Assembly (NCBI RefSeq): GCF_009914755.1
Contig: NC_060941.1
Length of the DNA: 64,000 nt
Strand: one strand, 5' to 3'
Origin: the human T2T-CHM13v2.0 reference genome, Homo sapiens
In this document: positions 9,488 to 63,264 of the stretch, one piece after another
Position numbering within the stretch: the first letter of the stretch is position 1
Layout: each line of letters begins with the position of its first letter
Translations under genes and position numbers: made by a program
Notes under the pieces: generated by a model
What the model saw: only the letters and a program-made list of their open reading frames with translations
The model's database searches: none
Told to the model about the DNA's origin: nothing

Positions 9488-9632
9488 CTATGCGTTAGTC
9501 TCCGTCAGCTTGGCCTCTGTGTCGCTGTCACTCAGATAACTGTGGGAGTATCGCGGTCTGGAGGTGTTGTCGAGAGGGTCGTGCTCATCATCTGACCGAT
9601 CAGGGGCAAGGGACTTCCAGTAGCTGGTGGGG
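9488..9632 (-). CDS. MYO18A: MYO18A last exon, coding part [47 protein letters not shown]
   Basis: ctgcag acceptor at 9633-9634; TAG at 9488-9490; recognised C-terminus. Confidence 0.95.
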
Positions 9633-14215: not shown

Positions 14216-14448
14216 TGGGAGCTATGACATCACCAGCGAGTTCAGCTGACAGGGCTCAGGGCTCAGGATGACTGACCAGCTTGGGTGGCCCCTGCTCATC
14301 AAGGCAGCCAGGAGGCTCTCCGAGGCCAGGCATGCCCGAGAGGAGTGCGGGTGGGCCCTAAGGTGGCGGCCTGAGGGGCAGGGAGGACGTTAGTTCACAC
14401 CGGGTGGGACACACCATGCTGAACCCAGGCCAGGTGCCACCTACTGCA

Positions 14449-15718
14449 CTAGTCGCTCTCGGGCCGGTACAGGTACCGCATCATCAGGCTGTCCACCTCT
14501 TTCTTGCGCTTCTTTTCCTCCTTCCTCGACGGCCGGTGCGTCTGCCCAGTTTCTTCACTTTCTGCAGCTGGGCCCTTCTTCACACTGGAGCAGCTGTGGC
14601 TGGAGACGGTCGAGCCGCTGGATGACGACGAGGAGGACTCAGACTCCGTCTCCGTTCTCTTTCTTCTCGACTTGGACTTCTTGCTCTTCCGAGAGCGCCC
14701 CTTCTTCCGCCTCTTGTGCTCTGAGGAAGCTTCGGAGCCGGAGCTGGAGCTGGAGCTGGAGCTGCTCCTTCCGCTCCTTCGCCGGCTCCGGCTCTTCCGG
14801 CCGCTGCGGGACCGGGACACATCAGCAGCAGAGGCGGAGCGGCGGATGCTGGCAGCTCGCTCCGGGGGGTCCAGTTGGGCGCTCCGGGCACTTTGGATGC
14901 TCTTCCTGTCATCCTCCTCGGAGTCGGGCTCCAGGCTGCTCCGCTGGAATGGAACAGGCTTGTAGCTCAAGACCTCGTTGACGGCAGCCTCCAGGTCTGG
15001 GTCCAGGTAGGAGTGACGGCTGACGGAGCGGACGCTGGAGCTGGGAGGCTCATCCACTGCCGAGGCAGAGCTGCGTGGCCGGGGTGGCACCGACAGACTG
15101 CGGGCCAGCGACGGGTGGCTGTACTGCGAGCAGGCCTCGCTCAGGGCCATACTGGCTCCATCATCCCACTCCTCTAGGCAGCTCCGGCCCAGGGACAGGC
15201 GAGAATCAGGGCTCTCCCGGCCTAGGCCAGAGGCCCGGCTCAGGGAAGGGCTGAGTGTCCTGGAGAGGCTGTCGAGCCGGGAGGTGCTGCGGCGGGAACC
15301 GGGCGAGCCCGACAGCGAGAAACTCAGGGAAGAGCCAGCCCTGTCTTCGCCAGAGCCCCGCCGCGTGGCCGAGGAGGCCCGGCTGACCGGTGCAGAGACG
15401 GTGGAGGCCGGGCTGAAGTCGGAGCCCCACCGCTTCTGCGGCCCCCGGCCAGCGCGCCCCCCGGTCCCCGAGCGGACGGAGCCGCACTCCTCCGGCTCCT
15501 CGGACTTCCTGCCTGGGCATGGCTCCTCCCTGGGGCCCACATGGGCCTTCCTAGGGGGCCTCTCGGGGGAGGCCGCCCGCTCGCTCAGGGAGGTGAAGAG
15601 CGAATCCGCGTCCCCGGTGCCCCCGATGGAGTCCTTTAGGGTGAGCCGCTTCCGATAGCTCAGGGAGCTCACCACCGAGGACGGCCTCTCCTCCACCCCC
15701 GGGGCCTCCTTAGAGAGG
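14449..15718 (-). CDS. MYO18A: Alternative Ser/Arg-rich stop-containing coding exon of MYO18A (gamma-type C-terminus, ~422 aa)
   Basis: Part of 477-aa ORF 14449-15882; CpG-rich and codon-biased; caacag acceptor at 15719-15720 is phase 2, matching exon 17034; long pyrimidine tract upstream; exact acceptor inferred. Confidence 0.85.
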
Positions 15719-17033
15719 CTGTTGAGGGCCGTTCCGAGGGAGGATGCGAGAACCAGACGTGGATGAGGGCAGCAGGGAGAGAGGGAGGTTGAGAGAGAGA
15801 GAGGAACAAGTATTAAACTCAGAGAATAAAGACACAGGGGGAGGGAGGCGAAAGGAGGAGAAAACGGCAGCAGCCCTGGCAAAGTGGTGGTGAGAGCATC
15901 GGAGGAAATGAAGCAAAATAATTTGCGTCAGTGAAAATAGCTTCATGGAGAATGTCATGTAAATTAGACTATTGTTCTATTTCATCACTTTTCCCCCTCT
16001 AAACGTTTAGTTCAATTTATTTCATTGTCAACTACCTGGAGCCTCGTGCCATGCCGTGGTGAACCACGGCAGTGGGGCGGGGAAGCCGGCATTATCTGCA
16101 ATAACAAAATGTTGTTTGGCCGAATAAATTAAACCAATTAGAGGGGGCTGCTGGGTGCTTCTGGTGAGGGGCCAGGCTTGGGGAAGGGGCCTTGGGGGAG
16201 CTGGAGAAGGGAGGGAGAGATGTTACTTTTTCTACCCAGTCTACCTGCTGTCTCTGGGAGAGGATGAGGAAGGGTGTGTCCTGGAGGATCAGGATGGGCT
16301 TGATCAGGGGGTTGGGATTCTATGTTGTGGGGGCAGCAGGGATATGGCTTTGTGGGGGGTGAGGGGGGAGCGAGGGCTCTTCTTTCTCCCTGCTGCCACA
16401 CTGGCCAGTAGGAAAGAGATGGGCAAGGGGAAGCTCTGGATTCCAGGGGTAGCTGTCTGTATGATCAGAGGACTATGACTGGCTAGAAAACAGGGGAGTA
16501 CATTCCCCCAGTGGATGGGTATTAGGAGGAAAGAAGTGGGGGCAGTGAAGAGATTAGAGGAAGGAGAGAATGGGCAGAAAAAGACAGAAATGTGCCTGTA
16601 ACTGGGTCAAGAATCAGTGGAACTGGTGCCTCTTCTGCTGCTATTCACGGTAAGACGTCAGAGATCCAGAGCTGGCCAGGGCTGTGGGATTAAGAGTCCC
16701 CTGTGCCCCATCCCAGTTTTGATTCCAAGGGTCTGAACTATCAGGAAGCTTGATCAACATTTGTTGAATGAATAAGTGGAGGTGACATTTAACTTACATC
16801 AAACCAAAGCCTGGAGCCTAATGGGAAAACATTCCCTGGAAAAAATAAGGGCGACGCAGCCCTGGCTAAGAAGAAACTTCCTGTGCCCATGCACATGCCA
16901 GAAGCATGCCCGGGCCGCAGTCACAAATGCCAGACAAGAGACACAGGCCTGCCCTCATGGGATCCAGGCGCTACTTGTCCATTCCTTGTGGCACAAGGTG
17001 GCTTTTCCTCCCAGCTCAAGGCCATATGCTCAC

Positions 17034-17156
17034 CTGGAACTCTTTAAGCTGCCATCATCAGAAGCTGCCTTGGAAGGTCCCTTGTTTTTTGACAACCAGG
17101 ACTTGACCCCGTCAACACGGTCCTCCAGCTCCGAGTCCACATCAGAGTCTCCCTCA
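17034..17156 (-). CDS. MYO18A: MYO18A penultimate exon [40 protein letters not shown]
   Basis: AG/GT borders; 123 nt, phase 2/2. Confidence 0.95.
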
Positions 17157-59421: not shown

Positions 59422-60625
59422 CTACCGACAGCAAGCAAAGGAGAGAGAGAGAAGAAGGGTGAAGATAAGCAGACCACTGGCACGCCCCCTTCAGCAAGTG
59501 CTCCTGAGTCAAGTGGGCCGGCACTCTCTAGTTGTCCAAGGCTCGGGGTGAAGGTGGGGGAGCTTGGTGCCAGGACCTGGGACCTGGCCTGAGCAGGTGA
59601 ACTGCACCCAGTCAAGGAGAGGCCAGGAAGGTGAAGAGACACTAGTGACCATCAGGCCTCTCAGAGGAGATGCTCCTCTAAGTCATTCCCGGTGGCCCGG
59701 GCAGGAGTCTGCCACTCTGCCTCTGGCCGCAGTCTCTCCTGGGCTGGCCATCCGGTCTATTCTGAATCAGGCTCCCTCTTCTGTGTGTCTACCAGGTCAG
59801 GCCACCTCACCACACCCAAGGCCTGGGCCCCCTGCCAGCCTCTTGCCTTATCTCCAGAGCATTTCTCAGCCTAGCTCCCCTGTGGCCACCAGCACAGAGC
59901 TGTTCCTTGCCTTCTAACACAGCCCAAGGGTGCCACTCCCTAGGCCAAGGGCTGTGTTCAGAGCTGTCGCCCTGCACCTCTCATAGAACACAGCTCCCAG
60001 CAGCTTGCAGTCTAGAATCTCTTCCTCAACCCCGACGTACCCTATAGCACTCCCACCTCTGCCAGCCAGGCACACCGACCCCATCTAGATCCAACCTGGG
60101 GACCACTTGACAGCTGCCCAAGAGCAAAGGCACTGTGGGCAAACCCTGTGGCCAGCCGTGACCTCTCTGGTTACTTAAAGCCCTGAAAAGCCTTTCTGGG
60201 GAGGAAGGCAAGTCAACCAGGACTTGGATGTTACCTGTTAGAAATCGGCAAGGAGTTATCAGGCCCCACCTGGGTCTAGAGAGCCAGGTCACCAAAAATA
60301 GCGACAGCAACCTTCCTTACCACCCGCCAGGCCCTGACACCAACACATGTCCTCGAGGCAGGACAATGTGGCCAGAGAAAGGGACTGGGCCCTGAGCGAG
60401 GAGGGGTGCCCTCCCACATGCACAGGACTTTGGGCTCTCTGGAGGAACCACTCTCCCCAGAGCACTTCTCTCATTTCTTTAAGAGAGAGCCCAACATGAG
60501 GGCCCACAGGCCGCCATGGAGCCATCTTCATGGTCAGCGCGCCTACAGACACACACAGGGTCCTGCCGCCAGCCTCAGGAAGAGGGCGGCCAGGGACTGG
60601 GACCCACACACAAGAGTGGCATTAC

Positions 60626-60700
60626 AGAAGCTGTGAAGATCCTCTCCAGCCGCTGGTGGGCCTCTTCCACGGGGGTCAGCTGGACCTTGGCAGCTCCTGC
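60626..60700 (-). CDS. MYO18A: Candidate 75-nt alternative exon AGAAKVQLTPVEEAHQRLERIFTAS
   Basis: tttaacctttag|GCA...TCT|gtaatg; phase 0/0, no stop; ACTAAT just upstream. Confidence 0.65.
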
Positions 60701-62118: not shown

Positions 62119-62571
62119 TTATCCCCACTCAACAGAGGAAGTCTGAGATGGGACTTTGCTGAGGTCCCAGGGGATGAGTGGCTGGGAATGCAAGCCCAGA
62201 TCCCTGACTTGAGAAAACAGTCTTTCCTCCTGGAACTGATCTGCTGAGACTCTGATCCTCGGGTTTGGGTCTCAGGCCTCAAGCTGGCGCCATGTAGCTG
62301 GGGACCAGGCCCTGACTCCCTATGGCAAGGCCAACATGCTGCTTAGCAGTTTCCATCCCAGCCGCCAGGCCAGAGCCCAGGCAACTGCAGGGTCCGCATT
62401 GGGTTAGGGAAAGCCATGCAGCCCCTGCCGGCCATCAGCACACGACCCTGGGCCCAGCCTCTCGGTCATGCGGGGTTCGCTGAGGTCGCTTGGGGAAGCC
62501 GGCTGTGAGGGTGCCTGGCCCTTGAGCTAGGGTGGTGAGGGGCAGGAGCGGTTAGTGACACACTCTTGTAC

Positions 62572-63264
62572 CTCCTGCTTCACACCAGGGACTGGTGACT
62601 TGGACTGCTGCTCTCCAGTGAGGTCTGACTTCGGGCCGGTGGAGCCTGGGGTCACCAGCTCTTCCGGTGGGGCTGGGGAGCGCTGCTTCTTTGGGGCTTC
62701 AGGCTTGGCTGGGGATCCTGCTTTCTCAGGGGAGTCTGCCCAGTCTGGGGAGCCTGGCTCCTGGCTGGAGGGCTTCTCCCCCTTCCCAGAAGACTGCTTG
62801 CCGCGGGCCTTGTGCTCCTTGCCCCTGCCCCGAGACATCAGGCTCCGCAGGCCCAGGGAGAGCTCATCCTTGGCTGCCTCCTTCTTCACTGCAGGCTTAG
62901 GCGGAGCAGGGGGAGGTGGGGGAGGGGGTGGCGGCTTGGGACTAGAAGCTGCCTTTTCTCCCCTCTTGCTTCGAGTCGGGTGCTCGGGGGACTTGACTCC
63001 TCTGCCTGGGGTCTCCTTGGCATTCCCAAGCTCCTCGCTGGGCAGCACCTTACTCACCACCTTCCTCACTGCATTTGCCACCCGCTTCCGGGACAGGCCC
63101 TGGGCCTCTTCGCTTAGGCCTTCTGCTGTGGCAGCTCCCGGGCCGTTCATGGCGAGTGTGGGTGCAGGGCTCCTGGCTCTCTGGGAAGTCTCTGGGGGTA
63201 TCGGGCTGGTGGGAGGCTGAGGACTCCTAGATGGGCCACTGCCTTCCTTTGAGCTGCCCTCTAG
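62572..63264 (-). CDS. MYO18A: Alternative Pro-rich coding exon of MYO18A (gamma-type N-terminal extension, 231 aa)
   Basis: Open frame LEGSSKEG...KPPPPPPPPPAPPKP...VKQE; tgtag acceptor and GAG|gtacaa donor, phase 0/0, compatible with exon 56987; boundaries inferred. Confidence 0.8.

What the first reader, a model, noticed from the sequence alone, without database searches (positions are those of the whole stretch)
14449..15718. Hidden 1.27-kb Ser/Arg-rich exon that swaps the MYO18A C-terminus
Seen: an uninterrupted CpG-rich frame of 423 codons (incl. stop) in the last intron. It is entered in phase 2 from exon 17034 (TCC AG|C CTC TCT AAG) and replaces the 47-aa TETNA tail with ~422 aa. The extension has many RxxS sites, an RS/poly-Ser/Lys block (RSRSGRKSRSRRRSGRSSSSSSSSS...KRRKKGRSRKSKKSKSRRKR) and two ordered-looking islands (LDPDLEAAVNEVLSYKPVPF; VDSLMMRYLYRPESD). 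Known: a striated-muscle isoform, Myo18A-gamma, with a Ser-rich C-terminal extension and Pro-rich N-terminus has been described mainly in mouse. Inference: this is its human exon; the RS block may be an SR-kinase (e.g. SRPK3) substrate or NLS/condensate module, and the terminal motif resembles the MYO18B C-terminus as I recall it (DVASIMKKYL).
Basis: partly seen in the sequence, partly recalled or inferred. Interest (0 to 1): 0.8.

Follow-up and report, generated by a model that had tools for sequence, protein, structure and literature searches.

The report
Unannotated human MYO18A-gamma tail exon
This stretch is the human copy of a fish-to-mammal conserved alternative last coding exon of the myosin gene MYO18A. 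It gives the muscle-type protein a long serine-rich tail, and the human RefSeq table supplied for this window does not list it.

Summary
On the minus strand an AG at 15720-15719 opens an exon at 15718. It continues the frame of exon 17034-17156 (TCC AG|C) for 422 codons to a TAG at 14451-14449. It replaces the 47-residue alpha/beta tail.

Length alone is weak evidence: 27 of 2000 composition-matched simulations reach 423 open codons. Conservation decides it. The tail is 419/423 identical to chimpanzee, 81% to donkey, 47-54% to squamates and about 42% to teleosts. It always sits at the C-terminus of proteins named unconventional myosin-XVIIIa. Other mammals start 15 nt upstream, where human has CGG instead of CAG.

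It matches the published description of the mouse Myo18A-gamma (heart and skeletal muscle) C-terminal extension. The gamma N-terminal exons are also intact in the window and missing from the table. A profile of the tail detects the last coding exon of the paralogue MYO18B (25 bits; best of 2000 shuffles 7.5).

Not shown: human transcripts, the exon's 3' end, any function of the Arg/Ser block. RxxS and RS counts match composition. Ordinary biology and an annotation gap.

The parts
14449..15718 (-). Alternative C-terminal coding exon of MYO18A (gamma-type tail): 1 base completing Ser, 422 codons, TAG at 14451-14449. The 3' end of the exon is not determined. T2T-CHM13 chr17:30022449-30023718.
   Evidence: orthology; genome self-hit.
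15719..15720 (-). AG of the 3' splice site used in the anthropoid primate models (junction KSS|SLSKEA).
   Evidence: All 69 anthropoid models among the 203 fetched proteins carry this junction. It is the first AG downstream of a 99-nt AG-free stretch.
15733..15736 (-). Position of the ancestral mammalian acceptor. Human reads CGG (15736-15734) before 15733, where models of non-anthropoid mammals imply CAG|A (junction KSS|RTALN...). Loss of this AG moves the exon start 15 nt downstream, in frame.
   Evidence: (site printed). The base in other species is inferred from their proteins; their DNA was not seen.
15721..15880 (-). Pyrimidine-rich, CU-repeat tract upstream of the exon: five CTCTCT motifs in the last 160 nt and a branch-point-like CTCAT with its A 46 nt before 15718.
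17034..17156 (-). Annotated upstream coding exon, ending TCC AG|gt. It is the shared donor for both alternative tails.
   Evidence: hub table.
9488..9632 (-). Coding part of the annotated last exon: the 47-residue alpha/beta tail ending TETNA. It becomes untranslated when the gamma exon is included.
   Evidence: Binding of betaPIX and of the GIPC3 PDZ domain to this C-terminus: passages of PMC11112018.
14890..15027 (-). One of the two best conserved islands, residues 232-277 (numbering: Ser of the split codon = 1), ...HSYLDPDLEAAVNEVLSYKPVPF... The core [YW]LDPxLExA[IV] is present in 24 of 24 aligned tails.
15085..15102 (-). RSLSVP, residues 207-212. RSxSxP is present in 24 of 24 aligned tails. 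It fits the 14-3-3 mode I consensus as I recall it; binding was not tested.
14656..14817 (-). Arg/Ser run (302-318), poly-Ser (319-327) and Lys/Arg cluster (336-355). The poly-Ser is a (GGAGCT)5.2 hexamer repeat at 14734-14764, and its length differs among primates.
14452..14529 (-). C-terminal island, residues 398-423: ...KKRKKEVDSLMMRYLYRPESD. It is the best conserved island outside mammals (0.77 identity), and its ending is present in 24 of 24 tails. It belongs to the stretch (residues 364-417 of the 422-residue translation) that aligns with the end of MYO18B.
14414..14441 (-). Candidate 5' splice sites just after the stop: TAG|gtggca (last exon base 14441, score 4.8) and ATG|gtgtgt (14415, score 6.0). 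The annotated donors have a leave-one-out median of 8.8. Neither is verified.
62572..63264 (-). Large gamma-type N-terminal extension exon: 231 codons, Pro-rich, 228/231 identical to chimpanzee isoform X5 residues 34-264. Not in the RefSeq table. Overlaps the RefSeq 'enhancer' 62197-62732.
   Evidence: hub table.
60623..60700 (-). Small gamma-type N-terminal exon: 26 codons, chimpanzee residues 265-290, 25/26 identical. Not in the RefSeq table.

Best explanation
Window 14449-15718 (minus strand) is the human orthologue of the alternative last coding exon that gives MYO18A its long serine-rich 'gamma' tail. When the exon is spliced in after exon 17034-17156, translation runs 422 codons and stops at the exon's own TAG. 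The 47-residue alpha/beta tail is then replaced and its sequence becomes 3' UTR. That short tail is reported to bind betaPIX and the PDZ domain of GIPC3.

The new tail has no known domain. It is low in complexity but carries seven islands conserved from teleosts to man. These include SSLSYRKR, RSxSxP, YLDPDLEAAINEVLSYKPV, a Lys/Arg cluster, SGSTVSxxSxSSVKKGP and the terminal VDSLMM(R/K)YLYRPESD.

Shown: the open frame, the phase, conservation and orthology, the junction used in anthropoid models, the intact gamma N-terminal exons, and the profile match to the MYO18B last exon with the same intron phase.

Inferred: that human heart and skeletal muscle include the exon. Also inferred: that in anthropoids loss of the older AG (human CGG at 15736-15734) moved the acceptor to the next AG, 15 nt downstream and in frame.

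Proposed and untested: the tail acts as a phospho-regulated non-helical tailpiece or docking region behind the coiled coil. On that view it governs co-assembly of Myo18A-gamma with sarcomeric thick filaments, as is presumed for MYO18B.
For: Frame, acceptor and phase.

Homologues: 23 proteins of 740-2110 aa at E <= 1e-3, named unconventional myosin-XVIIIa in horse relatives, bats and rodents (74-83% identity), squamates (47-54%) and teleosts (about 42%). Searches with the donkey and macaque tails gave 1025 and 1083 hits, of which 120 each were listed. Of the 203 proteins fetched, 186 end in the tail motif.

Primates: human against chimpanzee 419/423, gorilla 417/423, macaque 407/423, marmoset 384/426. 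Junction KSS|SLSKEA occurs in 69 models, all anthropoid. KSS|R... or KSS|SR... occurs in 115 tail-bearing models of other vertebrates.

Codon-position GC of 0.564/0.642/0.825. Conserved islands and motif counts of 24 of 24. Gamma N-terminal exons at 62572-63264 and 60623-60700.

MYO18B: tail profile 25.0 bits, E 1.7e-6 among 3065 frames of 120 kb; best of 2000 shuffles 7.5 bits. The last 80 residues score 28.2 against 11.0. hhalign E 2.6e-4 over 57 columns at both C-termini. The acceptor cacag|G has the same phase, with 410 codons. Coiled-coil exons lie collinear upstream.

Literature, passages only. [quoted passage not shown] It is found in striated muscle and localises to the A-band, and a 10.5-kb transcript is seen in heart and skeletal muscle (PMC11112018; PMC7900500; bioRxiv 10.1101/2021.04.14.439860).
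Against: No human RNA or peptide evidence was available. None of the 120 rows listed is named Homo sapiens, although clusters are named by one member only. The RefSeq table has no exon here.

The 15718 acceptor scores below 3, against a median of 8.9 for this gene's acceptors.

The models in other species are computer predictions that may borrow from each other. Of 186 tail-bearing models, 134 pair the tail with the alpha-type PDZ N-terminus and only 22 with the gamma type. The models therefore do not show that the tail is gamma-specific.

There is no AATAAA or ATTAAA between the stop and the annotated last exon, and the nearby donors are only moderate, so the 3' end of the exon is open.

On the human branch, 6 amino-acid changes fall in 678 gamma-specific codons, against 1 on the chimpanzee branch. 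This is weakly compatible with relaxed constraint, or with private variants of this one haploid genome.

Pairwise BLASTP of the human tail against the MYO18B frame is not significant (E 0.95).
Confidence: 0.85

Rival explanations
1. The exon is real and used, but it is not tied to the gamma N-terminus or to striated muscle. It would be a general alternative tail that also combines with the PDZ-bearing alpha N-terminus.
For: 134 of 186 tail-bearing models fetched start with the alpha-type MFNLMKK..., 22 with the gamma-type MAFSS..., and 30 otherwise.
Against: Such models are combinatorial predictions. The passages read say gamma carries both alternative ends and is restricted to heart and skeletal muscle. 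Nothing here tests linkage of the two ends.
Confidence: 0.2
2. The exon is a relic in humans. The ancestral acceptor is gone, the exon is no longer spliced in, and the frame is open only because too little time has passed.
For: Human has CGG where other mammals imply CAG. The replacement acceptor is weak. There is no human RefSeq model. Human-derived against chimpanzee-derived changes in gamma-specific codons are 6 to 1.
Against: The shifted junction is shared by Old World monkeys, apes and New World monkeys, so the change is old. The frame nevertheless stayed open with only in-frame length changes, at 384/426 identity to marmoset. The 6:1 split is not significant (one-sided binomial 0.06, my arithmetic). 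The gamma N-terminal exons are intact too.
Confidence: 0.06
3. It is a chance open frame in a GC- and CpG-rich intronic island, or a non-conserved cryptic exon of the kind unmasked by TDP-43 loss in MYO18A.
For: 27 of 2000 composition-matched simulations give a frame this long. A MYO18A cryptic-exon peptide is listed as a TDP-43 biomarker (PMC13343711 passages; its position is not given there).
Against: Conservation to teleosts at the protein level with the same C-terminal end. Codon-position GC gradient. No Rfam family and no Pfam match for the plus-strand frames.
Confidence: 0.01

Closest known systems
Mouse Myo18A-gamma C-terminal extension (Horsthemke et al. 2019, J Biol Chem 294:7202; known to me only through passages of PMC11112018, PMC7900500 and bioRxiv 10.1101/2021.04.14.439860)
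   Same: An alternative, serine-rich C-terminal extension of MYO18A that goes with a Pro-rich alternative N-terminus in heart and skeletal muscle. The size fits: mouse gamma has 2,409 aa, and chimpanzee isoform X5, which carries this tail, has 2,381 aa.
   Different: The human copy is absent from the RefSeq table given for the window. PMC7900500 lists only alpha and beta lengths for human. Anthropoids enter the exon 15 nt further downstream and lack the residues RTALN. I compared rodent models (hamster, kangaroo rat), not a sequence named as mouse, and could not read the original paper.
Last coding exon of the paralogue MYO18B (human chr22, T2T 26488706-26489939, plus strand)
   Same: One large exon behind the coiled coil. 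It is entered with one base completing a codon and has 410 against 422 codons. It is Ser-rich (14.6% against 25.5%). It has the same order of SSSSGS(T/I)VS(x)(K/H)S..S(V/I)K..P followed about 35 residues later by V(D/A)S(L/I)M(M/K)(R/K)YL at the very end. Both genes also share the first-exon peptide MA(F/I)SSR(F/L)A(F/L)WEQK and its unusual AAG|GAAAGT donor.
   Different: Only the last 60 or so residues are detectably alike: profile 25 bits, hhalign probability 42% with E 2.6e-4, pairwise BLASTP E 0.95. The middle islands (YLDPDLEAAINEVL and others) are not found in MYO18B. As I recall, and not tested here, the exon is constitutive in MYO18B but alternative in MYO18A. The review PMC11112018 states that the C-termini show low identity and singles out only the N-terminal 19 residues.
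Non-helical tailpieces of class II myosins
   Same: An analogy of function only: a segment without a recognised domain placed directly after the coiled-coil rod of a filament-associated myosin and rich in possible phosphorylation sites.
   Different: No sequence relation was sought or found. This tail is about ten times longer. Nothing here tests filament assembly.
RS domains of SR proteins (SRPK substrates)
   Same: A local run SRSRSGRKSRSRRRSGRS followed by poly-Ser. It is conserved as an Arg/Lys/Ser-rich stretch in mammals.
   Different: RS dipeptides over the tail equal the shuffled expectation (15 against 14.0). In reptiles and fish the stretch is Lys/Ser-rich rather than RS-repeating. 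There is no RNA-recognition motif and no Pfam hit.

Membership tests
MYO18A gamma-type C-terminal tail exon (orthologue) | Lies on the gene strand between the last common coding exon and the alpha/beta terminal exon, and continues the reading frame | tested here: met
   AG|C junction, 422 codons, own stop.
MYO18A gamma-type C-terminal tail exon (orthologue) | Sequence orthology to the C-terminal tails of myosin-XVIIIa isoforms in other vertebrates | tested here: met
   99% to chimpanzee, 81% to donkey, 47-54% to squamates, about 42% to teleosts. The C-terminal ending motif ([LV][MV]M[RK]YLYRP[ED]SD) is present in 24 of 24 aligned tails.
MYO18A gamma-type C-terminal tail exon (orthologue) | The same gene also encodes the gamma-type Pro-rich N-terminal extension | tested here: met
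   exons at 62572-63264 and 60623-60700, and two more just outside the window. All are open and 96-99% identical to chimpanzee isoform X5.
MYO18A gamma-type C-terminal tail exon (orthologue) | Identity with the published mouse Myo18A-gamma sequence | not tested
   The paper is not held. No hit named Mus was among the rows listed. Rodent models from hamster and kangaroo rat carry the tail.
MYO18A gamma-type C-terminal tail exon (orthologue) | Inclusion in human heart and skeletal-muscle mRNA and protein | not testable with these tools
   No transcript or proteome data are on hand. Five tail peptides are absent from the searchable full texts; supplements are not covered by that search.
Paralogue of the MYO18B terminal coding exon | Significant sequence similarity beyond composition | tested here: met
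   HMMER 25.0 bits against a maximum of 7.5 in 2000 shuffles. The last 80 residues score 28.2 against 11.0. hhalign E 2.6e-4 but probability only 42%. Pairwise BLASTP is not significant. The similarity is confined to about 60 C-terminal residues.
Paralogue of the MYO18B terminal coding exon | Same exon position and intron phase | tested here: met
   cacag|G ATA AAC..., one base completing a codon, as in MYO18A. 410 against 422 codons. It lies downstream of collinear coiled-coil exons.
RS domain (SR-protein type) | RS/SR dipeptide repeats in excess of composition | tested here: not met
   RS 15 against 14.0 +/- 3.1 and SR 14 against 14.0 in 2000 shuffles. There is a local run only.
Classical basic nuclear localisation signal | Cluster of Lys/Arg, K-(K/R)-x-(K/R) | tested here: inconclusive
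   [KR][KR]x[KR] occurs 9 times against 2.7 +/- 1.5, and 1 of 2000 shuffles reaches 9. Basic character is kept in all 24 aligned tails. Nuclear import is not testable here.
14-3-3 mode I site (RSxpSxP, consensus recalled) | R-S-x-S-x-P in a conserved position | tested here: met
   RSLSVP at residues 207-212. RSxSxP is present in 24 of 24 tails. One occurrence is not unusual by composition (488 of 2000 shuffles have at least one). Phosphorylation and binding were not tested.

The most novel reading that the evidence does not exclude
The gamma form is not an add-on but the ancestral design of vertebrate class-18 myosins, kept in both paralogues. That design has three parts: a first coding exon MAxSSRxAxWEQK with a conserved non-canonical GA 5' splice site, a Pro-rich N-extension, and one large Ser-rich terminal exon ending in a (L/I)M(M/K)(R/K)YL motif. 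The terminal motif, with the preceding SGS(T/I)VS..S..S(V/I)K..P, would then be the shared module that ties Myo18A-gamma and MYO18B to sarcomeric thick filaments or a common partner. In practice, about 2 kb of human MYO18A coding sequence would be invisible to RefSeq-based variant interpretation. The gene's cardiac form is essential in mouse.
Probability: 0.5. Interest if true: 0.55.

Novelty: new member of a known kind. Interest (0 to 1): 0.4.

Why it matters
Myo18a deletion, global or restricted to cardiac myocytes, is embryonic lethal in mouse, and gamma is the isoform found in heart (PMC11112018 passages). If the human gene makes the same isoform, three coding stretches are treated as intron by pipelines that follow the RefSeq table given here. 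They are 1,270 nt of tail, 771 nt of N-terminal sequence inside this window, and two small first exons just outside it. Variants there would be missed or mislabelled in cardiomyopathy and myopathy patients.

The exon swap also removes the C-terminus reported to bind betaPIX and a PDZ domain, so the two tails should wire the motor into different complexes.

The match to the end of MYO18B gives a concrete short motif to mutate when asking how both class-18 myosins reach the A-band.

Tried and rejected
1. The alpha/beta tail shares HSYL with the central island of the gamma tail. Against the tail profile it scores 1.4 bits, rank 951 of 4876 scored sequences (the real one plus shuffles). No relation.
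2. RxxS and RS enrichment: not above composition.
3. The first 60 kb searched on chr22 gave only a Lys-run from an Alu poly(A) tail. The true MYO18B frame lay further downstream.
4. A genome-wide pattern for IMKKYL gave 206 matches and a truncated list that never reached chr22. It was useless.
5. P0217 and P0218 are long, divergent proteins with the whole tail, 52% and 43% identical to chimpanzee gamma over the BLASTP-aligned stretches. I tested them as possible MYO18B orthologues. In three coiled-coil exons they match MYO18A as well as or better than human MYO18B (for example 36-40 of 61 against 18-21 of 61), so they are MYO18A-type. Their taxa are unknown.
6. The whole-tail search of the human genome found only the exon itself.
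7. No Pfam family for the tail or for four plus-strand frames, no Rfam family, and no solved structure at E below 0.7.
8. A reference spanning introns, given to reach longer database proteins, was rejected for its 56 stops. The macaque protein was used instead.
9. Two genome searches with a 2498-residue query failed on the server. A 1222-residue query worked.
Nothing rests on them.
11. The GA at the gamma first-exon donor first looked like a human lesion. MYO18B has the same GA, so it is old.
12. Literature. A search for 'GA-AG' with 'MYO18B' gave 0 papers and the tail peptides gave 0 papers. A search for MYO18A, long-read, skeletal muscle and isoform gave 3 papers. I opened one of them (PMC13343711), and its MYO18A passages do not concern this exon. 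A search for the mouse accession K3W4L0, recalled from memory, gave 1 paper, which I did not open.
Full report
OBSERVATION. On the minus strand the stop-to-stop frame runs 14449..15927, 492 codons. An AG at 15720-15719 precedes CCTCTCTAAG.... Exon 17034-17156 ends ...AGT TCC AG|gtgagc. Joining it to 15718 gives AG|C = Ser and then LSKEAPGVEE... for 422 codons up to the TAG at 14451-14449 (protein P0001). The annotated last exon is entered the same way (cctgcag|C) and encodes 47 residues ending TETNA.

The exon is GC- and CpG-rich: GC 0.676 and CpG o/e 0.71, against 0.28 and 0.22 in the flanking intron. GC rises from 0.564 at codon position 1 to 0.825 at position 3. Length alone is modest evidence. 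Of 2000 first-order Markov sequences with the composition of the open-frame region 14449-15927, 27 reach 423 open codons in some frame.

IS IT CODING? Conservation settles it. P0001 finds proteins named unconventional myosin-XVIIIa, with the match at their C-terminal end. Hits are horse relatives, bats and rodents at 74-83% identity, lizards and a snake at 47-54%, and teleosts at about 42% (23 hits among proteins of 740-2110 aa). Searches with the donkey and macaque tails in the size range of full-length proteins gave 1025 and 1083 hits, of which 120 each were listed. The listed hits include lemurs, New and Old World monkeys, gibbons, gorilla, bonobo and chimpanzee. Of the 203 proteins fetched, 186 end in ...M(M/V)(R/K)YLYRP(E/D)(S/N)D.

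The human tail is identical to chimpanzee at 419 of 423 positions, to gorilla at 417/423, to macaque at 407/423 and to marmoset at 384/426. All length changes are in frame. An exhaustive HMMER search of 1.84 billion cluster representatives gave only 25 hits at E <= 1e-3. All five that I inspected as full sequences, and the further fragments aligned in A1, are tails of this kind or pieces of one. There is no Pfam family, no Rfam family, no Pfam match for four plus-strand frames and no solved structure.

THE JUNCTION. Non-anthropoid mammals read ...GSLKSS|RTALN(T/S)L.KEGKG.EERP. The human frame upstream of 15718 still reads ...GTALNS. The bases before 15733 are CGG, where CAG|A would give the ancestral junction.

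The stretch from 101 nt to 2 nt upstream of 15718 has no AG. It is pyrimidine-rich with five CTCTCT motifs, and a CTCAT branch-point-like site sits 46 nt upstream. My reading is that the older AG was lost on the anthropoid stem and the next AG, 15 nt downstream and in frame, took over, at the cost of five residues. This is an inference, because I saw only the proteins of the other species and not their DNA. The new acceptor is weak on a matrix built from this gene's own 40 acceptors: below 3, against a leave-one-out median of 8.9.

WHAT IT IS. Passages in two reviews and a preprint describe mouse Myo18A-gamma. [quoted passage not shown] It is found in heart and skeletal muscle and localises to the A-band, and a 10.5-kb transcript is seen in those tissues (PMC11112018; PMC7900500; bioRxiv 10.1101/2021.04.14.439860). 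The original paper is not held.

Chimpanzee isoform X5 (2,381 aa) starts MAFSSRFAFWEQK... and ends in this tail. Its N-terminal extension maps to the window at 62572-63264 (231 codons, 228 identical) and 60623-60700 (25 of 26). Neither exon is in the RefSeq table. The two first coding exons lie just outside the window. The human gene thus holds every gamma-specific coding part intact.

PMC7900500 gives human lengths only for alpha and beta. None of the 120 rows listed is named Homo sapiens, although clusters are named after one member. I could not check GENCODE.

ANATOMY OF THE TAIL. Composition is 25.5% Ser and 13% Arg. In an alignment of 24 tails (16 mammals, 3 squamates, 2 teleosts and 3 unnamed divergent proteins), identity to human averages 0.86 in mammals and 0.46 outside them. 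Seven islands stand out (numbering with the split-codon Ser as 1):
- 9-42 (RPxSVxSSLSYRKR..LKDSIGG)
- 139-150 (RRSTSRLD)
- 201-220 (RSLSVPP)
- 232-277 (HRSYLDPDLEAAINEVLSYKPV)
- 287-304 (IRRSASA)
- 359-389 (SGSTVSxxSxSSVKKGP)
- 398-423 (KKRKKxVDSLMM(R/K)YLYRPESD)
.

Six motif patterns are present in 24 of 24 tails, and RRSxS in 22 of 24. RxxS (18 against 13.9 +/- 3.0) and RS (15 against 14.0) are what the composition gives. Only basic clustering is non-random, at 9 against 2.7. The poly-Ser is a (GGAGCT)5.2 repeat, and its length varies among primates.

MYO18B. The human assembly is searchable. MYO18B coiled-coil exons lie on chr22, plus strand. A profile of the 24 tails was run over all plus-strand frames of 120 kb downstream of chr22:26414001. 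It hit one 435-residue open frame at E 1.7e-6 (25.0 bits; the next hits are Lys-runs from Alu tails). Shuffles of that frame reach at most 7.5 bits (2000 shuffles). Its last 80 residues score 28.2 against 11.0.

hhalign with an independent 17-sequence alignment gives E 2.6e-4, probability 42%, over 57 columns ending at both C-termini. The aligned part reads SSSSGSIVSFKSADSIKSRPG...DDDVASIMKKYLQK in MYO18B, against SSSSGSTVSSHSCSSVKKGPA...KKEVDSLMMRYLYRPESD in MYO18A.

The frame is entered at cacag|G ATA AAC, one base completing a codon as in MYO18A, and holds 410 codons. Three coiled-coil exons lie collinear upstream. Pairwise BLASTP is not significant (E 0.95), and the middle islands are not found. 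I conclude that the two terminal exons are paralogous, at about 80% confidence. The recognisable similarity is confined to the last 60 or so residues. The 2024 review says the C-termini show low identity and highlights only the N-terminal 19 residues. I cannot tell whether the 2019 paper noted the C-terminal match.

HOW IT LIKELY WORKS. Shown: including the exon ends translation at its own stop and replaces the alpha/beta tail. According to review passages, that short tail binds betaPIX and the PDZ domain of GIPC3, so the swap should remove those contacts.

Inferred: inclusion in striated muscle, by analogy with mouse. The CU-rich upstream tract and two GCATG within 114 nt after the stop (window density 1.5 per kb) are the kind of elements that, as I recall, PTB and RBFOX proteins use on muscle-regulated exons. 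This is a lead only.

Open: the 3' end. There is no AATAAA or ATTAAA between the stop and the annotated last exon. Moderate donors lie 8 and 34 nt after the stop (scores 4.8 and 6.0, against a median of 8.8). Splicing from either to 9632 would leave the stop close enough to the last junction to escape nonsense-mediated decay. Read-through to the distal poly(A) site is the alternative.

Proposed: the tail is a phospho-regulated, mostly domain-free tailpiece behind the rod, and its conserved islands are docking motifs. Candidates are RSxSxP as a 14-3-3-type site, the basic cluster as a nuclear-import or acidic-partner site, and the terminal motif as a module shared with MYO18B. None of this was tested.

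RIVALS. A relic exon in humans is unlikely. The shifted junction is shared by New and Old World anthropoids while the frame stayed open and 90-99% identical. The 6-to-1 excess of human-derived over chimpanzee-derived changes in 678 gamma-specific codons is not significant (against 2, 1 and 1 ambiguous in 1634 common codons). It may also reflect private variants of one haploid genome. A chance frame or a non-conserved cryptic exon is excluded by conservation. Whether the tail is strictly coupled to the gamma N-terminus is open: 134 of 186 models pair it with the alpha N-terminus, but these are predictions.

VERDICT. The exon is real, conserved and coding. It is the human member of a known isoform-specific exon, and the human RefSeq table supplied does not list it. 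This is ordinary biology. It has practical weight for annotation and variant interpretation. Two modest additions came out of the work: the paralogy with the MYO18B terminal exon, and the anthropoid acceptor shift.

Noticed in passing
L017:4497-4536 (minus; about window coordinate 68498-68536, outside the window) and L024:1493-1540 (chr22, plus): The gamma-type first coding exon of MYO18A (MAFSSRFAFWEQK) is followed by GA, not GT: AAG|GAAAGTTGG. The first coding exon of MYO18B (MAISSRLALWEQK) has the same AAG|GAAAGTGAC. A non-canonical GA 5' splice site with an otherwise perfect consensus is thus shared by both class-18 myosin genes and is presumably as old as their duplication. It may hinder automatic annotation of the gamma start. 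A search for 'GA-AG' with 'MYO18B' gave 0 papers. I recall, not from a call, a report of efficient GA donors in FGFR genes.
   Followed up: partly
window 62572-63264 and 60623-60700 (minus): Two gamma-type N-terminal extension exons (231 and 26 codons, Pro-rich, with a run of eleven Pro) are intact, 228/231 and 25/26 identical to chimpanzee isoform X5. They are absent from the RefSeq exon table. The larger one overlaps the RefSeq 'enhancer' 62197-62732.
   Followed up: partly
window 15409-15411, 14980-14982, 14770-14772, 14590-14592 (tail); 62890-62892, 62788-62790 (N-extension): Six amino-acid changes are derived in this human genome relative to chimpanzee, mangabey and marmoset: R>P, I>V, R>G and R>C in the tail, and E>A and P>S in the N-extension. 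One change in 678 gamma-specific codons is derived in chimpanzee. The I>V falls in the EAAINEVL core, where 21 of the 23 other aligned tails have Ile at that position followed by Asn; snake and gecko differ only in the residue after the Ile. I could not tell whether the changes are fixed or private to CHM13.
   Followed up: partly
window 14734-14764: The poly-Ser run is a (GGAGCT)5.2 hexamer repeat. Macaque and gibbon tails are two residues shorter than human, macaque within this run, and bonobo is two Ser longer.
   Followed up: no
P0217 (2585 aa) and P0218 (2498 aa): Two unnamed, divergent full-length proteins (52% and 43% identical to chimpanzee gamma over the BLASTP-aligned stretches) carry the complete tail with all islands. 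P0218 also starts MAFSSRFAFWQQK and has a P-loop GPSGAGKT, which is neither the Ser form nor the Arg form that the review gives for Myo18A and Myo18B. Their coiled coils match MYO18A as well as or better than human MYO18B. Their taxa are unknown; they could date the origin of the tail.
   Followed up: partly
L012:5937-5939 and downstream (chr22): The MYO18B tail frame also stops at TAG. The first AATAAA or ATTAAA lies 1364 nt further on. The 3' end of that exon was not examined further.
   Followed up: no
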